A stretch of 10,689 nucleotides of DNA from a virus. Numbering within the stretch: the stretch's first letter is position 1; each line of letters opens with the position of its first letter. This document shows, one piece after another, positions 142 through 10,689 of this stretch. The stretch lies in UHGV virus genome UHGV-0361391; one strand, given 5' to 3'. The notes below the pieces were generated by a model, which worked only from the letters and a program-made list of their open reading frames with translations, made no database searches and was not told the origin of the DNA. Both the position numbers and the translations under genes were made by a program.

Positions 142-330
142 TGTAACCAGGTGAATCATTTGATACCGACAAGGGTTTTAGTGAAAGGAGGTGAAATCAC
201 CTGTAAGATGCTGAAATAAAACAGGTGATGTATACTTCGGACGGAAAACTCTTTTTGATACCGACTGCTCAACAAATAGTCAAAAGATCAAAAAACGGCG
301 ACACATTTGATACTGCTAATTTACCCTTAA
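142..330. repeat. Left end (attL-like) with three putative transposase-binding repeats
   Basis: TTTGATACCGAC at 159-170 and 254-265, TTTGATACTGCT at 306-317; these lie 17, 112 and 164 bp from the inferred terminus, resembling the Mu L1/L2/L3 layout. The same motif occurs in inverted orientation at the right end. Confidence 0.6.
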
Positions 331-497
331 AATCTTCTTCAAAACATCTTCAAACTGCCAAAATGCTCACATAATCGATCTAACTATAATCAGTATGATA
401 ATCATCATGAATTACTATTCAATAGCGTGATTATCTTGGGATGAGTCATATGATCTCTATATGTATTTACAGCACCACCTCATGATAGCGATGGCGC

Positions 498-1109
498 TTA
501 ACCAACAACATTTTTCTTTACTGTCACTGCCCCTGATTCCTGGGTGGCGTTATTGCTCGAGTTGTACTTCTCAATAACGCGCAAAATCTCTTTGTCTGTT
601 TCTTCACTTCCCGCCATTCCTATCTTTATTGCATTTTTTAGTACGGGACGTAATGGCAAGGCATCAATGATGCTTTCTACCGCATCCTGGCTGATTGTAG
701 ATGTATTCATTGCTGCCAGCCTGACAAGGTTGTTAGTACCTTCTCGCCTGATGAATGTAAGGATTAATTGCTTCTCTTGGGGGCTTAGAGAGCTAAGCGC
801 CTGATCAATACCCGAACCTGAATCGCAATTTTTTTCGATTTTTCCGCATTCATCTTCGTTCTTGCCTGTGGCCAACCATTCGAGTGAACAATTACAGGCT
901 TTAGCTATTAAGGCCAGTTTATCCAAAGGAGGGAAGTTTTTCCCCTTCCTGTAATTTCTTACTGTGGCTTCAGATAGTCCACAAAGGGTCGCCAGTTCGA
1001 CGTTTGTCATGTTTCCCATAGCCATAGCTAAGCGTTCTGAAAATCGGTTTATTCCTTCCATATCAATAAACCGTTCCGCACTGGATACGGTTTTTTCTGC
1101 CTTATCCAT
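498..1109 (-). CDS. XRE-family helix-turn-helix transcriptional repressor (prophage immunity repressor candidate, Mu c position)
   Basis: 203-aa ORF with an N-terminal HTH_XRE-like segment (NMTNVELATLCGLSEATVRNYRKGKNFPPLDKLALIAKACNCSLEWL). It is transcribed toward the left end, divergent from ner, as Mu c is. RBS AGGGGG lies 4 nt upstream of the ATG. Confidence 0.8.
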   Translation of the reverse strand: MDKAEKTVSSAERFIDMEGINRFSERLAMAMGNMTNVELATLCGLSEATVRNYRKGKNFPPLDKLALIAKACNCSLEWLATGKNEDECGKIEKNCDSGSGIDQALSSLSPQEKQLILTFIRREGTNNLVRLAAMNTSTISQDAVESIIDALPLRPVLKNAIKIGMAGSEETDKEILRVIEKYNSSNNATQESGAVTVKKNVVG

Positions 1110-1265
1110 ATAACCCCCTATAAAACAAAGAAATTATCGACATCGCATTTAATTTCGATATGCTCGCAAAAAACCGTTGATATCGAATTATTTTGCGATT
1201 ATGATTTACCTAAATCGATAACCGGTTTTGATTATCGGTTCAGGTAAACATGAGAGGATCACACA
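1110..1265. promoter_or_regulatory. Divergent early control region between repressor and ner with repeated TATCGA/TCGATA operator-like half-sites
   Basis: Half-sites TATCGA (1135-1140), TCGATA (1155-1160), TATCGA (1182-1187), TCGATA (1215-1220) and TTATCGG (1232-1238) form dyads in the 156-bp intergenic region. The position corresponds to the Mu operator/enhancer region. Confidence 0.45.
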
Positions 1266-1532
1266 ATGAGGGTATCCAGACAAGCATCGAATAATTTGTT
1301 TGTTCGAGAGGGGTGTGACTGGTCTGCTAAAGCGGTATATGCAGCCCTTGAAAACAAAGGCACAGACCTCCCTGAACTGGAAAGGGAGTTAGGATTAAAA
1401 AGCGGATCAATGCGCAATGTGTTTTACCGCCAGTGCCGTAAATACGAAGCCGCCATCGCCGAAAAAATAGGGGTTGAACCTGCTGTAATCTGGCCCAGCA
1501 GATACCAGGTGGACGCCAGAGAAGTGGCTTGA
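1266..1532 (+). CDS. ner: Ner-like DNA-binding protein (Mu Ner / Nlp family)
   Basis: 88-aa ORF containing the conserved VIWPSRYQ motif shared by Mu Ner and E. coli Nlp. It is the first rightward gene after the repressor, with a GAGAGG RBS upstream. Confidence 0.85.
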   Translation: MRVSRQASNNLFVREGCDWSAKAVYAALENKGTDLPELERELGLKSGSMRNVFYRQCRKYEAAIAEKIGVEPAVIWPSRYQVDAREVA

Positions 1533-1542
1533 TGGGGGATGT

Positions 1543-2967
1543 ATGTGGGTAACAGCAAAAGAATGTGTTGGTCTTCCTGATTTACCAATGATGGAACATA
1601 ACATTCGCCATCGACTCACAAAAGCAGCTGCGGGAAATGCAGCCATGTTACGCAAACGTAAGGGGACAAAAGCAATCGAATTTAATATCGATTGTTTGCC
1701 TTCTGGCGCGCAACAAGTATTGCGTGAACGTTATGCCCTTCAACTGATGACGCAAAAAGCTGATGAATCACCGGCTCCGGTGGTGACAAAGGCCAGACGC
1801 TCATCTGCCGTGGTTGATGCGGTGGAGGCATATCGCGGATCACCACAACTGATGCTCGAACGCCTCAATGCCCTGACTGAAAACCAGCGCCAGGTGGCTG
1901 ATGCACGAATCGCGATCGTCAGCGAAGTTCTGAAAGTCGCGCAACAACCTGGTTTCAGCTGTGCGAAGGCTATCCGGTTTATCGTTGACAACCTGGCACG
2001 TTCGCAACTGAACGAGCGCATTGTGGCAATGGTTGAGACGGCGAACGCCAAAAAGGGAAACAGCCGTGCGTTGAGTGAAATCACGCTGAAACGCTGGATT
2101 GCAGCCTTTAACAAGGCGCAGAACGCCGCTGAACGCCTGCTTTTGCTGGCACCTGGTAAGCGCCAGGAAATAAAAGCCGAAGATATTAACTGGCTGCCCG
2201 AATTTCTGGCGCAGTATCGCCAGTCAAACGGCCGACCAATGACCGAGGCTTACGAGGATTTTGTCGCTGAATGGCAGTACCGGCACGCTGATGAGCCTTA
2301 TATGCTCGATATCATGCCGTCTTATGACACCATTCGCCGCGCAATGAAGAAACTGCCGGAAGTGGTGAAACAAAAAGGCCGGGTGACCGGCAGTGAATAC
2401 CGCCAGCTTGAGGGATTCACGCGCCGCGACTGGTCCAGAATGCCGGTGAATTATGTCTGGATTGGTGGCTCCGGGGATGCACAGATGGTCAGCAATATGT
2501 TTGTGGCAAAAACCGGCTCTGTCGGTGCACAGGCGGATTACAGTGGCCCGGCCTGGTATCTGCTCGACTGCTCCCGCGCGGTAAAACCGCTGATTTACCA
2601 GGATCGCCGCAAGGCCGAACTGGTTGCCCAGACAAAAGTCGATGAAGGCCGTGCGTTTACTGATAACGAGTTTGTGTTCGGTGCTTCCGCCCGTCGCAAT
2701 GTGGGCTACGGCTTCTGGCAGATGGCCTACATGATGCAGTCACCGCTGACGCTGGATGCGCTGTGGCACGGCTGGTCAGCCATGCGTGACTTTAAGGCTG
2801 ACGGTGGCCGCAAACTCGGCATCAAACCCACCCATATTGTTGTCCCCACTTCGCTGGAAAAACAGGCGGTGCAGCTGCTGGAGCGCGAGCTGTTCGCGGA
2901 CGGTAACGCCACAGTCTCTAACGAGATGAAGGGCAAGCTGGAGCTGGTTGTCGCGGATTATCTGTAA
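1543..2967 (+). CDS. Chimeric ORF: Mu transposase A-like N-terminal DNA-binding region (about aa 1-310) fused in frame to a Mu gpT-like major head subunit C-terminal region; transposase catalytic core absent
   Basis: The N-terminus MWVTAKECVGLPDLP...GTKAIEFNIDCLP parallels MuA MELWVSPKECANLPGLP...GKAIEYNANSLP (domain I-alpha), and similarity continues to about NYVWIGGSGD (compare MuA QWINGDGY around D269). The remainder (WYLLDCSRAVKPLIYQ...RRNVGYGFWQMAYMM...IVVPTSLEKQAVQLL) does not resemble the MuA core and sits immediately upstream of the DUF1320 gene, where Mu encodes T. Confidence 0.6.
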   Translation: MWVTAKECVGLPDLPMMEHNIRHRLTKAAAGNAAMLRKRKGTKAIEFNIDCLPSGAQQVLRERYALQLMTQKADESPAPVVTKARRSSAVVDAVEAYRGSPQLMLERLNALTENQRQVADARIAIVSEVLKVAQQPGFSCAKAIRFIVDNLARSQLNERIVAMVETANAKKGNSRALSEITLKRWIAAFNKAQNAAERLLLLAPGKRQEIKAEDINWLPEFLAQYRQSNGRPMTEAYEDFVAEWQYRHADEPYMLDIMPSYDTIRRAMKKLPEVVKQKGRVTGSEYRQLEGFTRRDWSRMPVNYVWIGGSGDAQMVSNMFVAKTGSVGAQADYSGPAWYLLDCSRAVKPLIYQDRRKAELVAQTKVDEGRAFTDNEFVFGASARRNVGYGFWQMAYMMQSPLTLDALWHGWSAMRDFKADGGRKLGIKPTHIVVPTSLEKQAVQLLERELFADGNATVSNEMKGKLELVVADYL

Positions 2968-3010
2968 ACGGTGAGCCGGGCTTACGGCCCGGCCCCTGCG
3001 GAGGGCAAAT

Positions 3011-3370
3011 ATGAATGAACATCACACTGTGGCAGCAACAGATGATTCAGGCCTTCAGGTCAGTGGTGACAGTCCTGTCACGGTACTGGCAGAAGTGCGT
3101 TGCAGTCGTACGCATTTTCGTCGTGCGGGGTTCCTGTTCATGCGGGGACGCCAGCAGGTTGACGTCACCCCGGAGCAGCTTGCCCGACTGGAAGCGGAGC
3201 CATGCCTCACTGTACGAATACTACAGACGCCTGGTGATGATGCGGGAGCCGTGGCGGGTGTGGTTCATGCAGAGACCGGTGCAGATTTAGCCGAAGCCGA
3301 AACCGTACAGGATGCTCCCCGGAAAAAGACCGGCAATAACGCCAGACAGGCGAAAAAGGCGCGCGCATGA
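3011..3370 (+). CDS. Hypothetical small Mu-like head-region protein (position of Mu gp35)
   Basis: 119-aa ORF with GGAGGG RBS, translationally coupled (ATGA overlap) to the downstream DUF1320 gene. Assignment is by position only. Confidence 0.5.
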   Translation: MNEHHTVAATDDSGLQVSGDSPVTVLAEVRCSRTHFRRAGFLFMRGRQQVDVTPEQLARLEAEPCLTVRILQTPGDDAGAVAGVVHAETGADLAEAETVQDAPRKKTGNNARQAKKARA

Positions 3371-3786
3371 ATTACGCCACCGAAACCGATATGCGGGCAC
3401 GTTACCGCGAGGATTTGCTCAGGCCATTACTGGCCGTGCCCCGTTCGGATGAACCGGACACGCGCAAGCTGAACCGGGCACTGACGGACGCGTCTGCCCT
3501 TATCGACAGCTATCTGTCTTCCCGTTACACGCTGCCGCTGGCGGTGGTTCCGGCAGTTCTTGTTCAGCACTGCTGCACGATTGCCTTTTATTACCTGTGC
3601 GATCAGCGGGCATCCGATCAGGCGCGTGACCGTTACCGTGAGGCGCTGGCATGGCTGAAAGATGTCATGAACGGTAACGTGCCGGTCGGCGTGGATACCG
3701 ACGGTGCGGCCCCTGAATCCGGGGACTTACCGCAGGTACAGTCTGATGTGGCGGTGTTCGGGCGCAACCAGAAGGGCTTTATATGA
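3367..3786 (+). CDS. DUF1320-family phage protein (Mu gp36-like)
   Basis: 139-aa ORF with the typical DUF1320 pattern (N-terminal M.Y.T..DM.ARY, central LPL..VP..L, C-terminal ..GF) and typical size. Start overlaps the upstream stop. Confidence 0.75.
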   Translation: MNYATETDMRARYREDLLRPLLAVPRSDEPDTRKLNRALTDASALIDSYLSSRYTLPLAVVPAVLVQHCCTIAFYYLCDQRASDQARDRYREALAWLKDVMNGNVPVGVDTDGAAPESGDLPQVQSDVAVFGRNQKGFI

Positions 3787-4347
3787 TTACGGAAACCGAA
3801 CAGGCATATATCACCCGTATTCGTGAGTATTTCGGGAATGAACTGGTGTCTGTTGACACACATCCCGGCGACTGGAGCGACAGCGTGCTGCGCACCATGC
3901 TGATTAACGCCCCGGCTATCCTGGACGGGTAAACAGCTGCTTGCCGAGCGTTTCCCTGACACGTCGCGCCTGCTGCTGGAAGACTGGGAGCGTTATCTCG
4001 GGCTTCCCGAGTGTGATATGGCCGGAGCCACCCTCACGGAGCGACAGCGTTATGCCGGCAATAAATACCGGATGAAGCCCTCGCTGAACCGTGAATTTTA
4101 TATCCGGTTTGCGGCGGAGTTTGGTTATCAGATTGACATTCAGCCCTCACCGGATTCGCAGTGGGTCAGTATTGTCACGATTAACAGTGAAACCGGCTAC
4201 CGGAATATGAATGTGCTGGATGATATTCTCACGCCGCTGCGTATTTATGAAGGCAGTGCGCTGGAATGTATTCTGAACCGTTATAAGCCTGCATGGCAGA
4301 CGTTTATTTACGTTTATGCAAACAGCCATGAAGAGGAGACTATTTAA
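3783..4347 (+). pseudogene. DUF2313-family phage tail protein (Mu gp48-like), disrupted by a +1 frameshift near 3928-3930
   Basis: Frame 0 gives MITETEQ...INAPAILDG then a stop at 3930-3932; frame +1, open from 3904, continues KQLLAERFPDTSRLLLEDWERYLGLPE... to 4347 and carries the conserved DUF2313 FPDT...L..WER.LGLP motif. Removing one G from the GGG run would give a single ~188-aa protein. Confidence 0.65.
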
Positions 4348-5258
4348 TGTTTCATGTTGATAATAATTCCGGCGTGGCGAATATGCCTGCGCTGGCACCG
4401 GCGCAGAGTAATACCACCACCTGGTTTACCGAAGGTGACGGACAAAAAGGTATCAGCTGGATTGGTCAGGACTGGCTGAATATTCTCCAGGCCGAACTGC
4501 TGAATATTCTGGCTGAAGCCAGTATTCAGCCGGATAAGGCGCAGTTAAACCAGCTTACGCTGTCCATTAAAGCCATTATCGCTGCGAATGCCTTTTCCCG
4601 GAAAAATAACCTGAAAGAAATTGCTGATGCCGGTGCGGAGGCCCAGCGTCTGGCCCGTGGTTATCTTGGTCTGGGGACGCTTGCCACAAAAAACAGTCTT
4701 GGTCCCGGTGACGTTAATGCCCTGGCGAAGGATCAGAATCTCGCCGACCTGGAGAATAAGGGAACCGCCCGTAATAATCTGGATGTTTACAGCAAAAGCG
4801 AAGGTGATAACCGTTACCTGCGCAGGGAGCAGAACGGCGCAGACATTCCGGATAAAGGGGCTTTTATCGATAACGTCGGTTTACGGGAAACGGTGAATAA
4901 GGCGGCGAATGCTCTGCCATCGGACGGCACCGCCGTTGCCGCGAATAAACTCTCCACCCCAAGAAATATTAATGGCGTTCCTTTTGACGGGACGCAGGAC
5001 ATATACATTACCTCCGGTATGACTGAAGCTACTGCTGATAACAAATACGTTAGCAACGTTCAGCTTGGTGCCCAGAGTTACCATTCACCCGGAGGTAATG
5101 AAATGTCCTGGAGTTATGGTGCACCTTCTGGTTGTATGCTTTCAGGTATTAACGTGCAGGATACCGGGAAAAGTTCAGCCGATAATATCGGAGGCGTTTA
5201 TTACCGTCCGGTGCAGATATATATCGGTAATGCCTGGCGCACAGTTTCATCCGTCTGA
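4347..5258 (+). CDS. Phage tail fibre protein (Mu S / Stf-like)
   Basis: 303-aa ORF with the conserved tail-fibre N-terminus MFHVDNNSGVANMP...WLN.LQAE shared by Mu S and E. coli Stf proteins. GAGGAG RBS; TAATG overlap with the upstream DUF2313 gene. Confidence 0.85.
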   Translation: MFHVDNNSGVANMPALAPAQSNTTTWFTEGDGQKGISWIGQDWLNILQAELLNILAEASIQPDKAQLNQLTLSIKAIIAANAFSRKNNLKEIADAGAEAQRLARGYLGLGTLATKNSLGPGDVNALAKDQNLADLENKGTARNNLDVYSKSEGDNRYLRREQNGADIPDKGAFIDNVGLRETVNKAANALPSDGTAVAANKLSTPRNINGVPFDGTQDIYITSGMTEATADNKYVSNVQLGAQSYHSPGGNEMSWSYGAPSGCMLSGINVQDTGKSSADNIGGVYYRPVQIYIGNAWRTVSSV

Positions 5259-5266
5259 TTAAAGGA

Positions 5267-5289
5267 AAAGGGTGCGATAAGCACCCTTT
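5267..5289. terminator. Perfect hairpin between convergent tail fibre and tail-fibre assembly genes (likely bidirectional terminator)
   Basis: AAAGGGTGC-gataa-GCACCCTTT: 9-bp perfect stem with a 5-nt loop, flanked by A/T-rich sequence on both sides, between the stop at 5256-5258 and the minus-strand stop at 5293-5295. Confidence 0.55.
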
Positions 5290-5292
5290 ATG

Positions 5293-5865
5293 TTATTCAG
5301 GCTTCTCCGGCCATTTAATGGCGTCAAATTCAGCTTTGTTTTTAATCGCTGGTAGTTCCATTTTTTTCACCTGACTGATGTATTTCATCCATCGTGTAAG
5401 CGCAGCTCTGTTTTCATCACTAATCGTGCCCAGCTGTAACTCAGTTCTCCAGTCATTAATCTTTTCATATGCCTGATTAAGATATGACTGGCGCAGTGCT
5501 TCCGCTTTTTTGGTATAGTTAACCGGGAGTTGTGAGATGACACCATTATCAAACTTCCAGTTACCTGAAATATCAGTACCTTCAGGTAATTCGTCTGTCT
5601 CAACAACGGAAAAACCCGCAGGATACAGCGCCGAAGCATCCTGTGATATTGAGCAGATAACACCGCTGTCAGGGGTTATGCAAAGTTTATATTTTTTGGT
5701 GAATAATGGCAGGGACTCATAGAAATCCTTACCATCTTCACTTTGAAAATACTGTACATCATTACCAAAGGGTTTTTGTTCCGGGTAATATCGTTTAACA
5801 TTAATCAGTTGCATAAACATCACCATGTAAATCAATGATAAAAACAGGAATAATAATATCGCCAT
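5293..5865 (-). CDS. Tail fibre assembly protein (Tfa / Mu U-like); true start probably the internal ATG near 5814
   Basis: Conserved Tfa features: DASALYPAGFSVVE, ISDENRAALTRWMKYISQV, C-terminal WPEKPE. The first 17 residues of the longest ORF are hydrophobic and likely not translated; MQLINVKRYY looks like the real N-terminus. Confidence 0.85.
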   Translation of the reverse strand: MAILLFLFLSLIYMVMFMQLINVKRYYPEQKPFGNDVQYFQSEDGKDFYESLPLFTKKYKLCITPDSGVICSISQDASALYPAGFSVVETDELPEGTDISGNWKFDNGVISQLPVNYTKKAEALRQSYLNQAYEKINDWRTELQLGTISDENRAALTRWMKYISQVKKMELPAIKNKAEFDAIKWPEKPE

Positions 5866-6118
5866 ATACAGGCAAGGGGTTTCTGAAATAACGCATATTT
5901 TCAGATGCTGACCGCAGCGTCATGAATCGTTAAATCAATTATAAGCCGGTAATATGCGGTTATCGTATTGGCCTGTCCATCCTTTGTCGTTATGTTCCTG
6001 CCTAACCGGCTCCGTCACAAAAAGTACCGTGATGCTTTTTTTGAATTTCCGCAAAACACATATTTATCAGCGGTTGTTATTCTGACTCTGTTTAATTCAG
6101 AAACAGGCAGAAAAGACG

Positions 6119-8173
6119 ATGTCAGACTCCAAGTGGAAAATGCTCTCCGCCATGCCCGGAGAGTTTTCAGTCAAGGTTGCCGGTGGCACGGTGGCATTTA
6201 TTGAAAGCCCTTTCCGCCCTTCGGGTAATAAAGGGGGGATCACCTTCGCAGACTGCGTGATCCGCTTCAGCACGAAAGAGCCATTATGGGTAATGCCGGT
6301 ATCCGGTAATCCCAGTGCAGAAATCACCAGTTCAGGCGTGACTGGCATCATTCCAATCACATCTGACGTGGCCGGAACGCTCACGCCCTCCGACTGGAAT
6401 GCACCGGATAACGCCGGGCCTTCCGGTAGCACGAATGGCAGCAGTTCAGAGCCGGAATATTACTTTGTTGTCATTCTCGCGGGTCAGTCAAATGGCATGG
6501 CCTACGGCGAGGGGCTGCCGTTACCGGATTCGTTTGACCGCCCGGACCCACGCATTAAGCAACTGGCACGCCGCAGTACGGTAACGCCCAACGGTACGTC
6601 GTGTACATACAACGACATCATTCCGGCAGACCACTGCCTGCATGATGTTCAGGATATGAGCGGGATAAACCACCCGAAAGCTGATCTGGCAAAAGGCCAG
6701 TACGGGACTGTCGGTCAGGGGTTGCATATTGCCAAAAAACTGCTTCCCTATATCCCACAGAATGCGGGGATACTTCTGGTGCCCTGTTGTCGTGGCGGGT
6801 CAGCATTCACCACTGGAGCCGACGGCTCATTCAGTGAGGCCAGCGGTGCTTCCGCTGATTCTTCACGCTGGGGGGCCGGTAAACCTCTGTATCAGGACCT
6901 GGTAAGCCGCACCAAAGTCGCGCTGGCGAAAAACCCGAAAAACAAACTTCTGGCTGTGGTCTGGATGCAGGGAGAGGCAGACCTTGCCTCAGGAAGCCAG
7001 CAGCATAATAGTTTATTCACGGCCATGGTTCAGCAGTTCAGAACTGACCTGGCTCCGCTTGCTGCGCAGTGCGTGAGTGGAAATGCCACCACGGTGCCGT
7101 GGATTTGCGGTGATACCACGTATTACTGGAAAAACGCTGGCACCGATAAATATGAGGCAGTATACGGTGGCTACAAAGGCAAGGAAGCACAGAAAATTTT
7201 CTTTGTACCGTTCCTGACGGATGAGAATGGACAGAGCACGCCAACGAATGCTCCGGCGGAAGACCCGGATATTGTGGCTGTCGGGTATTACGGTGCAGCA
7301 TCCCGAACCCAGGGCAGTTTTGTTTCGACACAGCGTGACAGCCATTTCAGCTCATGGGCACGCAGGGGCGTCATTTCAGACCGTCTGGCCTCAGCTATTA
7401 TGCTCCATGCAGGGCGCACGGCTGAACTGATGCGCGGGCAGACCGTGACACCACCGGATGAGAAGCCGTCACCTGATACACCATCAAAACCGTCCACGCC
7501 ACCCGCAGACACCACGACGATGAGTACGCTATTTGCTTACCGGGCATCTGAGTCTGAAGGACGGTTGACACCACAGGGTTGGGCTGCCGGAGGTGGCAAG
7601 GCTCAAATCGTGGATGATGCCGGAGCCAGCGGGGGTAAGGCAATGAAACTGACCAAGGAAACAGGAAGAGCCCCCTGGTACCTTGAGCATGATGCTGGTA
7701 ATGGTGCGGACCTGCTGGGTAAAGGTGGTCTTGTCAGTTGTCGTTTTAAACTCGATGGCGCGCTTACGGCTAATCAGTACGCACTGGCGCTGTACTGGCC
7801 GGTTTCTGCCCTGCCGCAAGGGGTTACTCTGGAAGGAAATGCCGGTCATAACCTGCTGGCATCGTTCTACGTACAGAGCGATGCCACAGACCTTAACGTG
7901 ATGTATCACAAAGGAAACACGGCGCAGAACACGAAGCTGGGGTCATTCGGCGCATTTAATAACGAATGGCATACGCTGGGCTTCCGTTTTGCCGGTAACA
8001 ACAGTATTGAGGTGACGCCGGTCATTGATGGTAAGGACGGGACACCATTCATGCTGTCGCAGTCTCCGGTCGGCACGTTTACGGCAGACAAGTTGCGCGT
8101 GACCGATATCACTAAAAATGCGACTTACCCGGTACTGATTGACAGTATCGTGGTGGAAGTGAATAACGCGTAA
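6119..8173 (+). CDS. SASA-family carbohydrate esterase (sialate O-acetylesterase-like, NanS-p-like) with Pro/Thr/Ser-rich linker and C-terminal lectin-like beta-sandwich domain
   Basis: 684-aa ORF. The central region carries the SASA/SGNH-type GQSNG motif (FVVILAGQSNGMAYGEG) and a later VVWMQGEAD block. A linker PPDEKPSPDTPSKPSTPPADTTT precedes a ~190-aa C-terminal domain with lectin/LamG-like character. The gene lies downstream of the tail fibre module, as prophage nanS-p genes do. Confidence 0.75.
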   Translation: MSDSKWKMLSAMPGEFSVKVAGGTVAFIESPFRPSGNKGGITFADCVIRFSTKEPLWVMPVSGNPSAEITSSGVTGIIPITSDVAGTLTPSDWNAPDNAGPSGSTNGSSSEPEYYFVVILAGQSNGMAYGEGLPLPDSFDRPDPRIKQLARRSTVTPNGTSCTYNDIIPADHCLHDVQDMSGINHPKADLAKGQYGTVGQGLHIAKKLLPYIPQNAGILLVPCCRGGSAFTTGADGSFSEASGASADSSRWGAGKPLYQDLVSRTKVALAKNPKNKLLAVVWMQGEADLASGSQQHNSLFTAMVQQFRTDLAPLAAQCVSGNATTVPWICGDTTYYWKNAGTDKYEAVYGGYKGKEAQKIFFVPFLTDENGQSTPTNAPAEDPDIVAVGYYGAASRTQGSFVSTQRDSHFSSWARRGVISDRLASAIMLHAGRTAELMRGQTVTPPDEKPSPDTPSKPSTPPADTTTMSTLFAYRASESEGRLTPQGWAAGGGKAQIVDDAGASGGKAMKLTKETGRAPWYLEHDAGNGADLLGKGGLVSCRFKLDGALTANQYALALYWPVSALPQGVTLEGNAGHNLLASFYVQSDATDLNVMYHKGNTAQNTKLGSFGAFNNEWHTLGFRFAGNNSIEVTPVIDGKDGTPFMLSQSPVGTFTADKLRVTDITKNATYPVLIDSIVVEVNNA

Positions 8174-8180
8174 GCAGGAT

Positions 8181-8223
8181 AAAAAAATCCCGCCGGTCAA
8201 AGAGCCATTTGTTGACTGGCGGG
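8181..8223 (-). terminator. Hairpin with adjacent A7/T7 tract, oriented as an intrinsic terminator for leftward transcription
   Basis: CCCGCCGGTCAA (8189-8200) pairs with TTGACTGGCGGG (8212-8223), 12 bp with one G-U pair. AAAAAAA at 8181-8187 gives a U-tract only on the minus-strand transcript. Confidence 0.4.
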
Positions 8224-8338
8224 TGATATTCCAAACCCATTAAGGAAAGCTACAACCTCTGACAAAGAAGACCATTATGTACGCGGTTACTTTTTAGCTG
8301 AAAACTGTTTCTGTAGTCAATATCAAAGGTAAGGTTAT

Positions 8339-8521
8339 ATGACATTTGTTCATACGATGCTGCTTTATTTCTGCACTGTGGTCAGTGCGTTATATCTGGT
8401 GAGCGGTGGTTATAAGGCCATCAGAAATTATGTTCGCCGCAAAATTGATGACGCAGCAGCTGAAAAGCTCAGTAAAACAGCGCAGGCAACTCCGCTCCCA
8501 AAAGACCCGACCCAGCCCTGA
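8339..8521 (+). CDS. Hypothetical small membrane protein (single predicted TM helix)
   Basis: 60-aa ORF with an AAGG RBS; hydrophobic N-terminal segment FVHTMLLYFCTVVSALYLVSGGY followed by a charged tail. Lies in an AT-rich islet. Confidence 0.4.
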   Translation: MTFVHTMLLYFCTVVSALYLVSGGYKAIRNYVRRKIDDAAAEKLSKTAQATPLPKDPTQP

Positions 8522-8556
8522 TTGCAGGGCTGTATTCCCACATAAGGAGGATATAC

Positions 8557-8811
8557 ATGCCAGAGATTAAAGGCACCGTCACTGAAGTCCTGGTAAAACA
8601 GGCACTGTATTCCGGTGAAGTAAATAAATTACTGAAAGCGCAGGTCCGCAAGGATTTTGAGGCACAAATCGACACTTACGTTGATGAAGTGCTGGCAAAA
8701 CTTATTGGGCCAGCAGTTGCGGCCAGTGATGCTGATAATGAGCCGAAAACCGACGCGCAGCCAGAGCAACCAGACCCGGCTCAGCCCGGAACTGACAGTA
8801 CCATGATGTAA
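8557..8811 (+). CDS. Hypothetical protein (helical N-terminus, acidic proline-rich C-terminus)
   Basis: 84-aa ORF preceded by a strong AAGGAGG RBS with 7-nt spacing, followed by a hairpin (AAACCGG...CCGGTTT, 8818-8843). Confidence 0.5.
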   Translation: MPEIKGTVTEVLVKQALYSGEVNKLLKAQVRKDFEAQIDTYVDEVLAKLIGPAVAASDADNEPKTDAQPEQPDPAQPGTDSTMM

Positions 8812-8978
8812 CAATACAAACCGGTGGTGTCCTCTGCCGGTTTGACACTAATGAAAACATCTTTGCCGCTATCCAGCCATATGTAATCGCTGGATAGTAT
8901 TTCGTATTCAGAAATATAGCTGCTTATGGAGCAGTCAATCCTGCTTCCCCATCCGGGCAGGCAAATGAACCGGTATCA

Positions 8979-9272
8979 TTAGTCCGATTCACGCTTTTGT
9001 AGAATCGTTCCCAGAATGCTATACAGCTCATTAGCCTGTTGCTCCATCATTGAGACGGAGGCTATACGGTGCAAAGTGATTTCAGGAGGTGGCACACCTC
9101 CATCTTCTTGCTGTGGAGGAAAAACATAAGATTTAATAAAAAAGTTGAAGCATATGAACTCTCCCGCACTCGAACTGTATTTGCAGGCATCTGAATAATC
9201 GGAAAAATAATCATTATAGATTTCCGCATTTTCAATCATTTTTCGATTTCTCGTCGTTACATGATTGTCCAT
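8979..9272 (-). CDS. Hypothetical protein, unknown function
   Basis: 97-aa minus-strand ORF with an AGAGG RBS 5 nt upstream of the ATG; AT-rich codon usage differs from the surrounding phage genes; divergent from com-mom. Confidence 0.45.
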   Translation of the reverse strand: MDNHVTTRNRKMIENAEIYNDYFSDYSDACKYSSSAGEFICFNFFIKSYVFPPQQEDGGVPPPEITLHRIASVSMMEQQANELYSILGTILQKRESD

Positions 9273-9460
9273 AGCAGCCTCTTACGCTGGCAATTAACCA
9301 ATTGACTTCTATAAATTAGTTGATTTGTTTGCTTTGCGGTATTCAAATGTACAATCATTCAGCACTTATGCGTTACAGCACCGTTTAAAATTAGTGATCA
9401 AACTCATAAATTTTCGCTAATGACATTTCGTGTTATTTGTTGTATCAATTAAATAAATCA

Positions 9461-9485
9461 AATCGATCGTTTTTGTCGATCGATT
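9461..9485. promoter_or_regulatory. Perfect palindrome with two GATC (Dam) sites upstream of com-mom; candidate methylation-sensitive regulatory site
   Basis: AATCGATCG-tttttgt-CGATCGATT (9-bp arms, 7-bp spacer) with GATC at 9465-9468 and 9478-9481, in the AT-rich intergenic region about 45-70 bp upstream of the com start. Phage Mu mom is controlled through clustered GATC sites upstream of its promoter. Confidence 0.45.
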
Positions 9486-9528
9486 GAGTGATAAAGATAT
9501 CAACAACAAAGCAGGAGGTTATGCGGCC

Positions 9529-9729
9529 ATGTATCGAAACATACGGTGCCGACATTGTAACAAGCTACTGGCACGAGCCAGCTTCAGTTATCTGGAAGTC
9601 AAATGTCCGCGCTGTAAAACCCTCAATCAAATCACATCTCAGAGCGCCACAGAGCACCCCACATACACAAGGAAATCCTGTCGTGGGGAACAGAAAGCAA
9701 GTTACATCCCGTATCATCAGCACGCCTGA
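9529..9729 (+). CDS. com: Com-like zinc-finger translational regulator of mom
   Basis: [34 protein letters not shown]... parallels Mu Com MKSIRCKNCNKLLFKADSFDHIEIRCPRCK with the same C-x2-C...C-x2-C spacing. AGGAGG lies 10 nt upstream of this ATG. It overlaps the 5' end of the mom-like ORF as in Mu. Confidence 0.75.
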
Positions 9730-10420
9730 ACTTATTCACTATAACGACAATATCGTCGGTTATGGCTCCCGTGAGTTACGGGTTGAGACAATAAGTTGCT
9801 GGCTGGCCCGGCTGGTCGTCGTCAATAAACATTACAGCCATCGTTTCGTAAATAATTCCTACCTTCATCTGGGCATATTTTCAGAACGGGAGCTGGTTGG
9901 CGTAATGCAATGGGGTTATGCCCTTAATCCAAACAATGGTGCACGCGTCGTAACTGGCACGCAGAACCGCGAATATATGGAGCTTAACCGGTTATGGCTG
10001 CATGACTGTATGCCGAGAAACTCCGAATCAAGGGCAATCAGTTACGCGCTCAAACTAATCAGACAACTTTATCCGCAGGTGCAGTGGGTTCAGTCGTTTG
10101 CAGATGAGCGTTGTGGCTGTCTTGGTGTCGTGTACCAGGCAAGCAATTTTGATTATGTAGGCAGTCATGAAACAACATTCTATGAACTTGATGGCGAGTG
10201 GTATCACGAGATTTGCAAGAATGCAATCAAACGAGGAGGACAGCGAGGTGAACATCTGCGGGCTAATATCGACAGAGCCAGTGTTCATAAATTCCGTCAG
10301 TTTCGTTACATCCGGTTTCTGGACAAGAGAGCCAGAAAACGCCTTAACACAAAGCTATTCAAAGTCCAGCCTTACCCAAAACCACAAACAGTTAAAACTG
10401 GTTTGAAAGAGAGTGAATGA
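9683..10420 (+). CDS. mom: Mom-like DNA modification protein; start uncertain (candidate GTG at 9683, alternative ATG at 9905)
   Basis: Long ORF in the +1 frame relative to com and overlapping its 3' end, at the extreme right end of the element. Size from the GTG (245 aa) is close to Mu Mom (231 aa). AAGGA lies 9 nt upstream of the GTG. Confidence 0.6.
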
Positions 10421-10548
10421 ACGCTTAAAAACTCATTCTAAAACTCAAAAGAAAAGCGCCGATTTAGTATCAAATAAGTTGCGTATCGGCGTTTTTCAGC
10501 GGTATCAAATGAAATGCAAATCGGTATCAAAAAAATCGCCGCGCTATA
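10421..10548. repeat. Right end (attR-like) with three putative transposase-binding repeats in inverted orientation
   Basis: GTATCAAA cores at 10467-10474, 10502-10509 and 10524-10531 (reverse complements TTTGATACTAA, TTTGATACCGCT, TTTGATACCGAT). The innermost-to-terminus spacing (17 bp) equals that at the left end, and the sites are closely packed as Mu R1-R3 are. Confidence 0.6.
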
Positions 10549-10552
10549 CTCA
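10549..10552. repeat. Right copy of CTCA direct repeat flanking the inserted element (putative target-site duplication)
   Basis: Identical to 138-141 and in the same codon phase of the interrupted IS transposase. Confidence 0.5.
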
Positions 10553-10689
10553 GGCTCTCATTTTTCAGCGTTCCCCAGAAGCTTTCCATCGGAGCGTTGT
10601 CGTAACAGTTACCTTTACGCGACATTGATGTTTTCAGACCAAACTGCTCCTGTATGACCCGGTAATCGTATGCGCAGTACTGTGAACCT
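10549..10689 (-). mobile_element. IS3-family insertion sequence fragment: internal part of transposase orfB (DDE domain region), truncated by the insertion; gene continues past window end
   Basis: Minus-strand translation of 10688->10549 reads GSQYCAYDYRVIQEQFGLKTSMSRKGNCYDNAPMESFWGTLKNESLS, the conserved IS3-family catalytic-domain block (SMSRKGNC.DNAPMESFFGTLK). The frame then runs into element sequence and stops. Confidence 0.8.

What the first reader, a model, noticed from the sequence alone, without database searches (positions are those of the whole stretch)
6119..8173. Large SASA-domain esterase with a lectin-like C-terminus carried as cargo next to the tail-fibre module
This is the largest intact gene in the element and is not part of the Mu backbone. 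The GQSNG motif and the VVWMQGEAD block indicate a sialate O-acetylesterase-type SGNH hydrolase, and the PT-rich linker plus beta-rich C-terminal domain suggest carbohydrate binding. Similar nanS-p genes are known from lambdoid and Stx prophages of E. coli, where they deacetylate host mucin sialic acids, but not to my knowledge from Mu-like elements. It could be a host-interaction moron or a virion-associated depolymerase-like accessory protein. The only nearby terminator-like hairpin (8181-8223) is oriented for the opposite strand, consistent with the gene arriving as a separate module.
Basis: partly seen in the sequence, partly recalled or inferred. Interest (0 to 1): 0.6.

Follow-up and report, generated by a model that had tools for sequence, protein, structure and literature searches.

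The report
Mu-prophage NanS-p esterase, swapped N-domain
This gene encodes a phage-borne enzyme of a known kind (NanS-p) that removes acetyl groups from gut-mucus sialic acids, but here it sits in a Mu-like prophage and its usual capsid-binding head domain is replaced by a rare, uncharacterised small domain found only in Mu-like prophages.

Summary
An intact 684-aa ORF lies at 6119-8173(+), with SASA (E=1.5e-13) and DUF6645 (E=7e-68) domains. It matches NanS (PDB 3pt5, E=2e-117) and the lectin-like NanS-p C-domain (6yp6, E=7e-98). Catalytic Ser124, His409 and oxyanion Gln123 are present, as are the four proposed sugar-binding aromatics. It is cargo in a heavily deleted Mu-like prophage; canonical Mu has only 95 bp between gin and com.

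First, the block 6449-8473 (esterase, lectin domain, part of DUF1378) is about 90% nt identical to a lambdoid late region, and the breakpoint falls exactly at the start of the esterase domain. Second, DUF1737, which a 2026 preprint reports as the phi24B capsid anchor, is replaced by an ~85-aa all-beta domain. That domain has no Pfam or PHROG family and gave 3 hits among 1.84 billion representative proteins. It occurs only in esterases of Mu-like prophages of E. coli, Shigella and Salmonella and is under purifying selection.

The gene is not rare. All nine Mu-like loci inspected carry it, including O157:H7, and the matching com-mom end occurs in 233 of 5426 E. coli genomes. I found no paper describing it. 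Verdict: a new domain-swapped variant of a known family, of moderate interest.

The parts
6119..8173 (+). Whole ORF, 684 aa: NanS-p-type sialate O-acetylesterase, Mu-type variant. The protein is identical to RefSeq WP_001284083.1.
6119..6373 (+). N-terminal domain, aa 1-85. Predicted all-beta (six strands, aa 7-79). No Pfam or PHROG family. It replaces DUF1737.
   Evidence: no family; rarity; AF2 topology, pLDDT about 60-75; pN 0.227 against pS 0.761 versus L004
6374..6454 (+). Linker 1, aa 86-112, rich in S/G/P/T/N and predicted disordered. The homology breakpoint with lambdoid alleles lies at 6449.
6455..7408 (+). SGNH type II / SASA esterase domain, aa 113-430. Catalytic Ser124 (codon 6488-6490), oxyanion Gln123 (6485-6487), catalytic His409 (7343-7345).
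7409..7522 (+). Linker 2, aa 431-468, P/T/S-rich. It is the most variable segment among alleles (72% mean pairwise identity, with length variation).
7523..8170 (+). C-terminal DUF6645 lectin-like jelly-roll domain, aa 469-684. The aromatics Y554, Y559, Y584 and F654 correspond to Y510, Y515, Y540 and F611 of vb_24B_21.
6449..8473 (+). Block that is 89.8% nt identical to a lambdoid prophage late region (E. coli DEF2, L007: Q, tRNAs, nanS-p, DUF1378, DUF826, holin, lysozyme).
8182..8223 (-). A7 run plus 12-bp-stem hairpin, terminator-like when read on the - strand. Conserved in the lambdoid copy and in the divergent Mu_JNE082796 copy.
8339..8521 (+). DUF1378 small protein (60 aa, hydrophobic N-terminal stretch). 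Co-travels with the esterase in both lambdoid and Mu-like contexts.
8557..8811 (+). DUF826 small protein (84 aa). Co-travels with the esterase.
5964..6005 (+). Remnant of the 3' end of the gin invertase gene (...IGLSILCRYVPA*). The rest of gin and the distal half of the G segment are deleted.
142..10550 (+). Extent of the deleted Mu-like prophage that carries the gene, in order: c repressor, ner, MuA-N::gpT-C fusion, Gp36, Gp48 fragment, tail fibre, Tfa, esterase block, com, mom.

Best explanation
The ORF encodes a prophage-borne sialate 9-O-acetylesterase of the NanS-p kind. It has three modules joined by flexible linkers. The central SGNH type II (SASA) domain uses a Ser124-His409 dyad, with Gln123 in the oxyanion hole and no catalytic Asp, as in NanS, to remove O-acetyl groups from Neu5,9Ac2 and O-acetylated mucin glycans. 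The C-terminal DUF6645 jelly-roll acts as a lectin-like carbohydrate-binding module that brings the enzyme to its substrate. The N-terminal ~85-aa beta domain takes the place of DUF1737. The protein has no signal peptide, so it should reach its substrate only after phage-induced lysis or as part of a virion. The gene, together with DUF1378 and DUF826, is cargo placed between gin and com at the right end of a lineage of enterobacterial Mu-like phages. The esterase/lectin/DUF1378 block was exchanged with lambdoid late regions by recombination, with the breakpoint at the N-domain/esterase linker. Shown here: homology, catalytic and binding residues, domain architecture, cargo status, recombination breakpoints, and the restriction and purifying selection of the N-domain. 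Inferred: substrate, release route, and the role of the N-domain.
For: SASA and DUF6645 hits and the absence of DUF1737. NanS 3pt5 E=2e-117 with 58% identity, and NanS-p C-domain 6yp6 E=7e-98 with 69% identity. Ser124, Gln123 and His409 align with NanS Ser19, Gln18 and His301. The four aromatics are conserved. NanS-p enzymes are experimentally active Neu5,9Ac2 and mucin esterases (PMC8065619). Some DUF1737-bearing alleles are 85-91% identical over the esterase and C-domain. Window 6449-8473 is 89.8% nt identical to a lambdoid late region. Mu has no gene between gin and com. The same gene order occurs in 9 of 9 inspected Mu-like loci. dN/dS is 0.09-0.15 for the esterase and C-domain, and pN/pS is 0.30 for the N-domain at saturated synonymous divergence. 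No hydrophobic N-terminal signal sequence is present.
Against: No enzymatic data exist for this allele. In this particular remnant the late activator C, the lysis genes and most of gin with its promoter are deleted, and no sigma-70-like promoter was found on the + strand upstream. Expression and release of this copy are therefore uncertain. The AF2 models are low-confidence (mean pLDDT 48-49), so nothing structural beyond homology was added.
Confidence: 0.85

Rival explanations
1. Virion-displayed enzyme. The new N-domain is a Mu-type virion anchor (for capsid or tail), functionally analogous to DUF1737 of phi24B gp84. Mu-like particles would then carry a mucin-sialate esterase plus lectin module that helps them in mucus or acts on O-acetylated surface glycans of the host cell. 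This refines the best explanation rather than excluding it.
For: In phi24B the DUF1737 domain of the NanS-p homologue gp84 sits as a hexamer on capsid hexons, and full-length gp84 is found in fresh virions (bioRxiv 10.64898/2026.04.10.717836). N-domain type tracks phage type. Lambdoid (L007) and P2-like (L008) alleles have DUF1737. All Mu-like alleles have the new domain, in three lineages down to 30% identity, and the domain is found nowhere else. It is nearly invariant among Mu-type alleles (97.8% identity) while the enzyme parts are mosaic (86-89%). A disordered linker follows it, as in gp84. The gene lies next to the tail-fibre module.
Confidence: 0.3
2. Pure lysogen-benefit moron. The enzyme serves only the bacterium, allowing growth on O-acetylated sialic acids as shown for NanS-p of EHEC. 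On this reading the N-domain has a non-structural role such as oligomerisation, stability or regulation.
For: NanS-p alleles of EDL933 and O104:H4 support growth on Neu5,9Ac2 (PMC8065619). The ORF, DUF1378, DUF826, com and mom remain intact in several decayed remnants where structural genes are deleted or are pseudogenes. Cupin-like small barrels often mediate oligomerisation (weak fold hint).
Against: It does not explain why the N-domain is swapped precisely according to phage type, or why it is so conserved. The protein lacks an export signal. The remnants with identical proteins may share ancestry, so retention is not independent evidence.
Confidence: 0.45
3. Tail-associated depolymerase-like enzyme that de-O-acetylates a bacterial receptor (O-antigen or capsule, for example O-acetylated polysialic acid) to aid adsorption.
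For: The gene is adjacent to the tail fibre, tail-fibre assembly and invertible host-range module. There is a weak PHROG hit of the SGNH region to a 'tail protein' family (phrog_25867, E=1e-6) and to an Arthrobacter phage minor tail protein. The idea is raised in the literature for NanS-p (PMC8065619).
Against: There is no beta-helix, trimerisation or baseplate-adapter domain. The enzyme and lectin parts are about 90% identical to lambdoid alleles whose known substrate is free or mucin-bound Neu5,9Ac2. The gene lies after gin, outside the tail operon proper.
Confidence: 0.1
4. Decaying, non-functional relic. The ORF is merely not yet disrupted in a dead prophage, or the N-terminal extension is untranslated and the annotated start is wrong.
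For: The prophage in the window is heavily deleted. No promoter-like site was found upstream.
Against: The reading frame is an intact 2055 nt with all key residues. The identical protein occurs in many genomes (cluster of 599 members). Purifying selection acts on all three domains, including the N-domain across three lineages. The only in-frame ATG codons between codon 12 and codon 127 is Met59, which would cut the conserved domain in half.
Confidence: 0.07

Closest known systems
NanS-p (prophage-borne Neu5,9Ac2 esterases of EHEC lambdoid and Stx phages, e.g. 933W L0105/z1466 and phi24B vb_24B_21/gp84)
   Same: Homologous SASA/SGNH esterase domain and DUF6645 lectin-like C-domain: about 65% aa identity to 933W, and 85-91% to some lambdoid alleles. 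Same catalytic and binding residues, same P/T-rich interdomain linker, the same downstream DUF1378 and DUF826 genes, and no signal peptide.
   Different: The N-terminal DUF1737 domain is absent and is replaced by an unrelated ~85-aa beta domain plus a longer linker, giving 684 aa against 636-657 aa. The gene lies between gin and com of a Mu-like transposable phage, not downstream of Q/stx in a lambdoid late operon.
Chromosomal NanS (YjhS) of E. coli, PDB 3pt5
   Same: Same SGNH type II fold family by sequence (58% identity over about 315 residues). Ser-His dyad with a Gln in the oxyanion hole and no catalytic Asp.
   Different: NanS is a single-domain enzyme of about 326 aa. The window protein adds N- and C-terminal domains and is prophage-encoded.
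P2-like (Peduoviridae) phage alleles, e.g. vB_EcoM-569R5
   Same: These are also NanS-p-like genes outside lambdoid phages.
   Different: They keep DUF1737 and sit after the lysis genes. Only the Mu-like phages have the new N-domain.
Phage Mu right end (S-U-U'-S'-gin-com-mom)
   Same: The flanking genes (tail fibre, Tfa, gin remnant, com, mom) are Mu homologues in Mu order.
   Different: Mu, and by N-domain tblastn also D108 and SfMu, lack the esterase block.

Membership tests
NanS-p (prophage sialate O-acetylesterase) | SASA / SGNH type II esterase domain homologous to NanS | tested here: met
   PF03629 E=1.5e-13, 51.3 bits against a cutoff of 24.8. 3pt5 E=2e-117, aa 110-428, 58% identity.
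NanS-p (prophage sialate O-acetylesterase) | Catalytic Ser in the GQSN block, catalytic His in the R-x-S-H block, Gln in the oxyanion hole | tested here: met
   Ser124, His409 (RDSH) and Gln123 align to NanS Ser19, His301 and Gln18. These positions are invariant or nearly invariant in the 25-sequence alignment.
NanS-p (prophage sialate O-acetylesterase) | C-terminal lectin-like jelly-roll domain (DUF6645) with four conserved aromatic residues | tested here: met
   PF20350 E=7e-68. 6yp6 E=7e-98, 69% identity. Y554, Y559, Y584 and F654 are conserved.
NanS-p (prophage sialate O-acetylesterase) | N-terminal DUF1737 domain (PF08410) | tested here: not met
   No PF08410 hit for the whole protein at E<=1 or for aa 1-112 at E<=0.1, whereas the lambdoid L007 and P2-like L008 alleles do hit it.
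NanS-p (prophage sialate O-acetylesterase) | Location in a lambdoid late region (Q / stx ... nanS-p ... S R Rz) | tested here: not met
   The gene lies between the gin remnant and com/mom of a Mu-like prophage. The downstream DUF1378 and DUF826 partners are retained.
NanS-p (prophage sialate O-acetylesterase) | Esterase activity on Neu5,9Ac2 and O-acetylated mucin glycans | not testable with these tools
   Inferred from homology to alleles shown to be active (PMC8065619).
Chromosomal NanS (YjhS) | Single-domain enzyme of about 326 aa encoded in the chromosomal sialic-acid regulon | tested here: not met
   The protein is 684 aa with three domains and lies inside a prophage.
Mu backbone gene | Has a counterpart at the same position in phage Mu | tested here: not met
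   Mu gin ends at 35673 and com starts at 35768, with no ORF between them. The N-domain is absent from all phage records except two inserted Mu-like phages.
Capsid decoration protein of the phi24B gp84 type | DUF1737 capsid-binding domain; presence in purified virions | tested here: not met
   DUF1737 is absent. Virion presence cannot be tested with these tools. Whether the new N-domain is an analogous anchor remains open.
Tailspike / depolymerase | Beta-helix or trimeric receptor-binding architecture with a baseplate/tail adapter domain | tested here: inconclusive
   No such Pfam or PHROG domain was found. The only signal is a weak SGNH-region hit to a 'tail protein' PHROG (E=1e-6). The N-domain fold is unassigned.

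The most novel reading that the evidence does not exclude
NanS-p esterases are a modular 'anchor - enzyme - lectin' family of virion-displayed mucus-active proteins, and the N-terminal anchor is exchanged to fit the particle of each phage type. On this reading the ~85-aa beta domain found here is a previously unrecognised Mu-type virion-binding module. Mu-like transposable phages of E. coli, Shigella and Salmonella would then carry a sialate O-acetylesterase on their particles.
Probability: 0.3. Interest if true: 0.6.

Novelty: new variant of a known kind. Interest (0 to 1): 0.4.

Why it matters
NanS-p enzymes let pathogenic E. coli feed on O-acetylated sialic acids of gut mucin. A 2026 preprint now reports that they also decorate the phi24B capsid through DUF1737. 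This locus shows that the same enzyme-plus-lectin cassette has moved into Mu-like transposable phages. These phages are present in about 4% of complete E. coli genomes, including O157:H7, and also occur in Shigella and Salmonella. The cassette is joined to a different, lineage-restricted N-terminal domain, with the junction exactly at the domain boundary. That gives a natural domain-swap experiment for asking what the N-terminal module does: virion anchoring or something else. It also adds an uncounted class of nanS-p alleles to surveys of sialic-acid esterase gene dosage in enteric pathogens. The catalytic function itself is ordinary and predictable.

Tried and rejected
(1) The word-indexed homologue search with the N-terminal 113 aa returned only fragments of the same protein. 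The exhaustive HMMER search and a three-sequence profile search were needed, and even these found only three lineages.

(3) AF2 of aa 1-129 with 6 sequences gave mean pLDDT 49. AF2 of the full length with 25 close homologues gave mean pLDDT 47.6 and poor models even for the esterase and C-domain. Only the strand topology of the N-domain was reproducible, and I did not use the models for residue-level claims.

(5) I suspected that E. coli M3's Mu-like prophage carried a DUF1737 allele (P0042), which would have broken the link between N-domain and phage type. It carries the long form, so the DUF1737 allele must lie elsewhere in that genome.

(6) I first read 28-32 genomes with the N-domain against 233 with the com-mom end as meaning that most Mu-like prophages lack the cargo. 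Inspecting the ~95% class showed that they carry the divergent allele, which blastn had missed.

(7) The Rfam scan of the window found nothing. The promoter scan found no + strand sigma-70-like site upstream of the gene.

(8) Rangel et al. 2016 (PMC5038012) is not held in the library, so I could not check whether it mentions Mu-type paralogues.
Full report
OBSERVATION. The window has an uninterrupted ORF at 6119-8173 on the + strand (ATG start, 684 codons, TAA stop). It is the longest ORF in the window. The hairpin downstream is real, with arms 8189-8200 and 8212-8223, 12 nt, 92% complementary. The consensus scan did not list it.

WHAT THE PROTEIN IS. Pfam finds SASA (PF03629, aa 117-312, E=1.5e-13, above the gathering score) and DUF6645 (PF20350, aa 533-650, E=7e-68), and nothing else. 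Against solved structures, aa 110-428 match E. coli NanS/YjhS (3pt5, E=2e-117) and aa 469-683 match the C-terminal domain of phage NanS-p (6yp6, E=7e-98). Counted on those alignments, identity is 58% and 69% respectively. According to PMC9063846, NanS works with Ser19 and His301, uses Gln18 in the oxyanion hole and has no catalytic Asp. These residues align to Ser124, His409 and Gln123 of the window protein. PMC10462455 gives the family's fourth block as RSSH or RASH; here it reads RDSH, with the His kept. The four aromatic residues proposed to bind carbohydrate in the phi24B C-domain (Y510, Y515, Y540, F611; PMC10462455) correspond to Y554, Y559, Y584 and F654, all conserved. The first 50 residues contain no signal-peptide-like hydrophobic segment.

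CONTEXT. The neighbours are Mu genes in Mu order:
- a CI-type repressor, 498-1109 on the - strand;
- a Ner-like HTH protein, 1266-1532;
- an in-frame fusion of a Mu-transposase N-terminus with the C-terminal half of the major head protein gpT, 1543-2967;
- FluMu_N, Gp36 and a Gp48 fragment;
- a tail fibre, 4347-5258;
- an inverted tail-fibre assembly gene, 5293-5865;
- then, after the esterase, DUF1378, DUF826, com and mom at 9488-10420.
By comparison with other loci the element runs from about 142 to about 10550. It is a 10-kb remnant of a roughly 38-kb phage. Canonical Mu has only 95 bp between gin and com, so the ~3.4-kb block holding the esterase is cargo relative to the Mu backbone.

WHERE THE CARGO CAME FROM. 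In E. coli DEF2 a typical lambdoid late region reads Q antiterminator, tRNAs, nanS-p (647 aa, with DUF1737), DUF1378, DUF826, holin, lysozyme. It is 89.8% nt identical to window 6449-8473. Position 6449 is codon 111, the first residues of the esterase domain. Position 8473 lies inside DUF1378. So the enzyme, the lectin-like domain, the hairpin and most of DUF1378 form one block shared between lambdoid and Mu-like phages, and the 5' breakpoint falls in the interdomain linker. The hairpin and its A7 run are conserved in the lambdoid copy. They are also conserved in a Mu-like copy that is only about 71% identical overall, where the stem is kept and the loop is shortened. The hairpin is thus a conserved part of the block, and it does not mark a junction.

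THE N-TERMINAL DOMAIN IS THE UNUSUAL PART. Published NanS-p proteins begin with DUF1737 (PMC10462455). The window protein has no DUF1737 at permissive thresholds, whereas the lambdoid (L007) and P2-like (L008) alleles do. Residues 1-112 hit no Pfam or PHROG family. An exhaustive HMMER scan of 1.84 billion representative proteins with aa 1-112 gave three hits. Two are fragments of the same protein. The third, P0006 (30% identity), is the contig-end start of another NanS-like gene in Salmonella enterica. P0006 lies in a Mu-like prophage, in the order Gp45, Gp46, baseplate J, Gp48, tail fibres, invertase, two small ORFs, then the esterase. A third lineage (60% identity in the N-domain, 66% overall) is the Mu-like phage Mu_JNE082796, which has transposed into an Stx2c prophage. 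It has the same order: tail fibre, Tfa, gin, esterase, DUF1378, DUF826, com. The same allele occurs in the Mu-like prophages of O157:H7 FRIK944, O91:H21 FWSEC0008 and strain 2012EL-2448. Among 50,697 phage records the N-domain occurs only in two 'inserted Mu-like phage' regions.

WHY THE DOMAIN SWAP IS INTERESTING. A 2026 preprint (bioRxiv 10.64898/2026.04.10.717836) reports that phi24B gp84, a NanS-p, is a structural protein. Its DUF1737 domain binds as a hexamer in the central hexons of the capsid. The full-length 70-kDa protein is present on fresh virions, and the enzyme part is later clipped off. If DUF1737 is a capsid anchor, its replacement by a domain found only in Mu-like phages suggests an anchor adapted to a different particle. 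This is inference from the association between domain type and phage type, and I put it at about 0.3. Against it, several remnants that cannot make particles still keep the ORF intact, which fits a benefit to the lysogen. The two roles are not exclusive.

PREVALENCE AND PRIOR KNOWLEDGE. The exact protein is RefSeq WP_001284083.1, annotated 'DUF6645 domain-containing protein' or 'sialate O-acetylesterase'. The com-mom end of this phage lineage is in 233 of 5426 complete E. coli genomes. All nine Mu-like loci that I opened carry the esterase block. Full-text searches found no paper that combines nanS-p or sialate O-acetylesterase with Mu-like phages in this sense. The NanS-p literature I could read describes lambdoid and Stx prophages. 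The gene is therefore common in databases but, as far as I could check, undescribed as a distinct architecture.

THIS COPY. In the window most of gin and the distal half of the invertible segment are deleted, leaving a 3' gin remnant at about 5964-6005. E. coli JE86-ST02 and M3 share the same junction. The late activator and the lysis genes fall within the large deletion, and no sigma-70-like promoter is seen upstream on the + strand. Whether this copy is expressed or released is unknown.

VERDICT. The gene is a NanS-p-type esterase with a lectin-like C-domain, carried as imported cargo in a Mu-like prophage. It fails one defining feature of published NanS-p proteins (DUF1737), so I file it as a new variant of a known kind. 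It works like NanS-p, but with a novel, Mu-restricted N-terminal module of unknown role. Interest is moderate (0.4).

Noticed in passing
window 1543-2967 (+): A 474-aa in-frame chimera. Residues 6-143 match the Mu transposase DNA-binding domain and residues 324-474 match the C-terminal half of the Mu-like major head protein gpT. It marks a large internal deletion that removed the transposition, early, lysis and most head genes.
   Followed up: partly
window 3787-4347 and 5866-6118: Two further deletion scars. Only the C-terminal part of Gp48 (YmfQ-like) remains at 4018-4347. Between Tfa and the esterase only a 3' remnant of gin (about 5964-6005) is left, so the invertible tail-fibre segment is frozen in one orientation. 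The same gin junction is present in E. coli JE86-ST02 (L002) and M3 (L006).
   Followed up: partly
window 10556-10689: The sequence immediately right of the Mu-like right end is 100% identical to IS600 (IS3 family), which is present in thousands of E. coli records. Together with the 'Shigella sonnei' labels on the closest proteins (P0001, P0008), this suggests a Shigella-type genome.
   Followed up: partly
window 8182-8223; L007 10750-10790; L004 about 10045-10080: The A7 run plus GC-rich hairpin just after the esterase stop codon is conserved in both lambdoid and Mu-like contexts. This holds even at about 71% overall nt identity, where the stem is kept and the loop shortened. It is oriented as a terminator for the antisense strand, and its role is unknown.
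   Followed up: partly
window 6308-6310 (codon 64 of the esterase ORF): In an otherwise almost invariant N-domain, position 64 is hypervariable among Mu-type alleles (N, P, T, D, K, S). This could be a surface-loop position under diversifying pressure.
   Followed up: no
L004 11420-12472: In Mu_JNE082796 the gene downstream of com is a 350-aa ORF that reads like a DNA cytosine-5 methyltransferase rather than mom. One E. coli hit (H159) is likewise annotated com plus DNA cytosine methyltransferase. This looks like an alternative anti-restriction cargo at the same slot.
   Followed up: no
window 8979-9272 (-): A 97-aa minus-strand ORF between DUF826 and com with no Pfam or PHROG family. It is conserved and annotated as hypothetical in the related prophages. 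Two sigma-70-like sites lie just upstream of it on the - strand (9293-9264 and 9235-9207).
   Followed up: partly
L005 7426-7910 (Salmonella enterica contig): In the Salmonella Mu-like prophage two extra small ORFs (58 and 87 aa, the second with a weak HTH signal) lie between gin and the esterase gene. They are absent from the E. coli loci.
   Followed up: no
E. coli JE86-ST02 (NZ_AP022811.1), 703347-705401 and about 1410360-1416996: This strain carries two copies of the Mu-like right-end region, each matching the window at 99.9-100%. This indicates either transposition of the phage or duplication within one genome.
   Followed up: no
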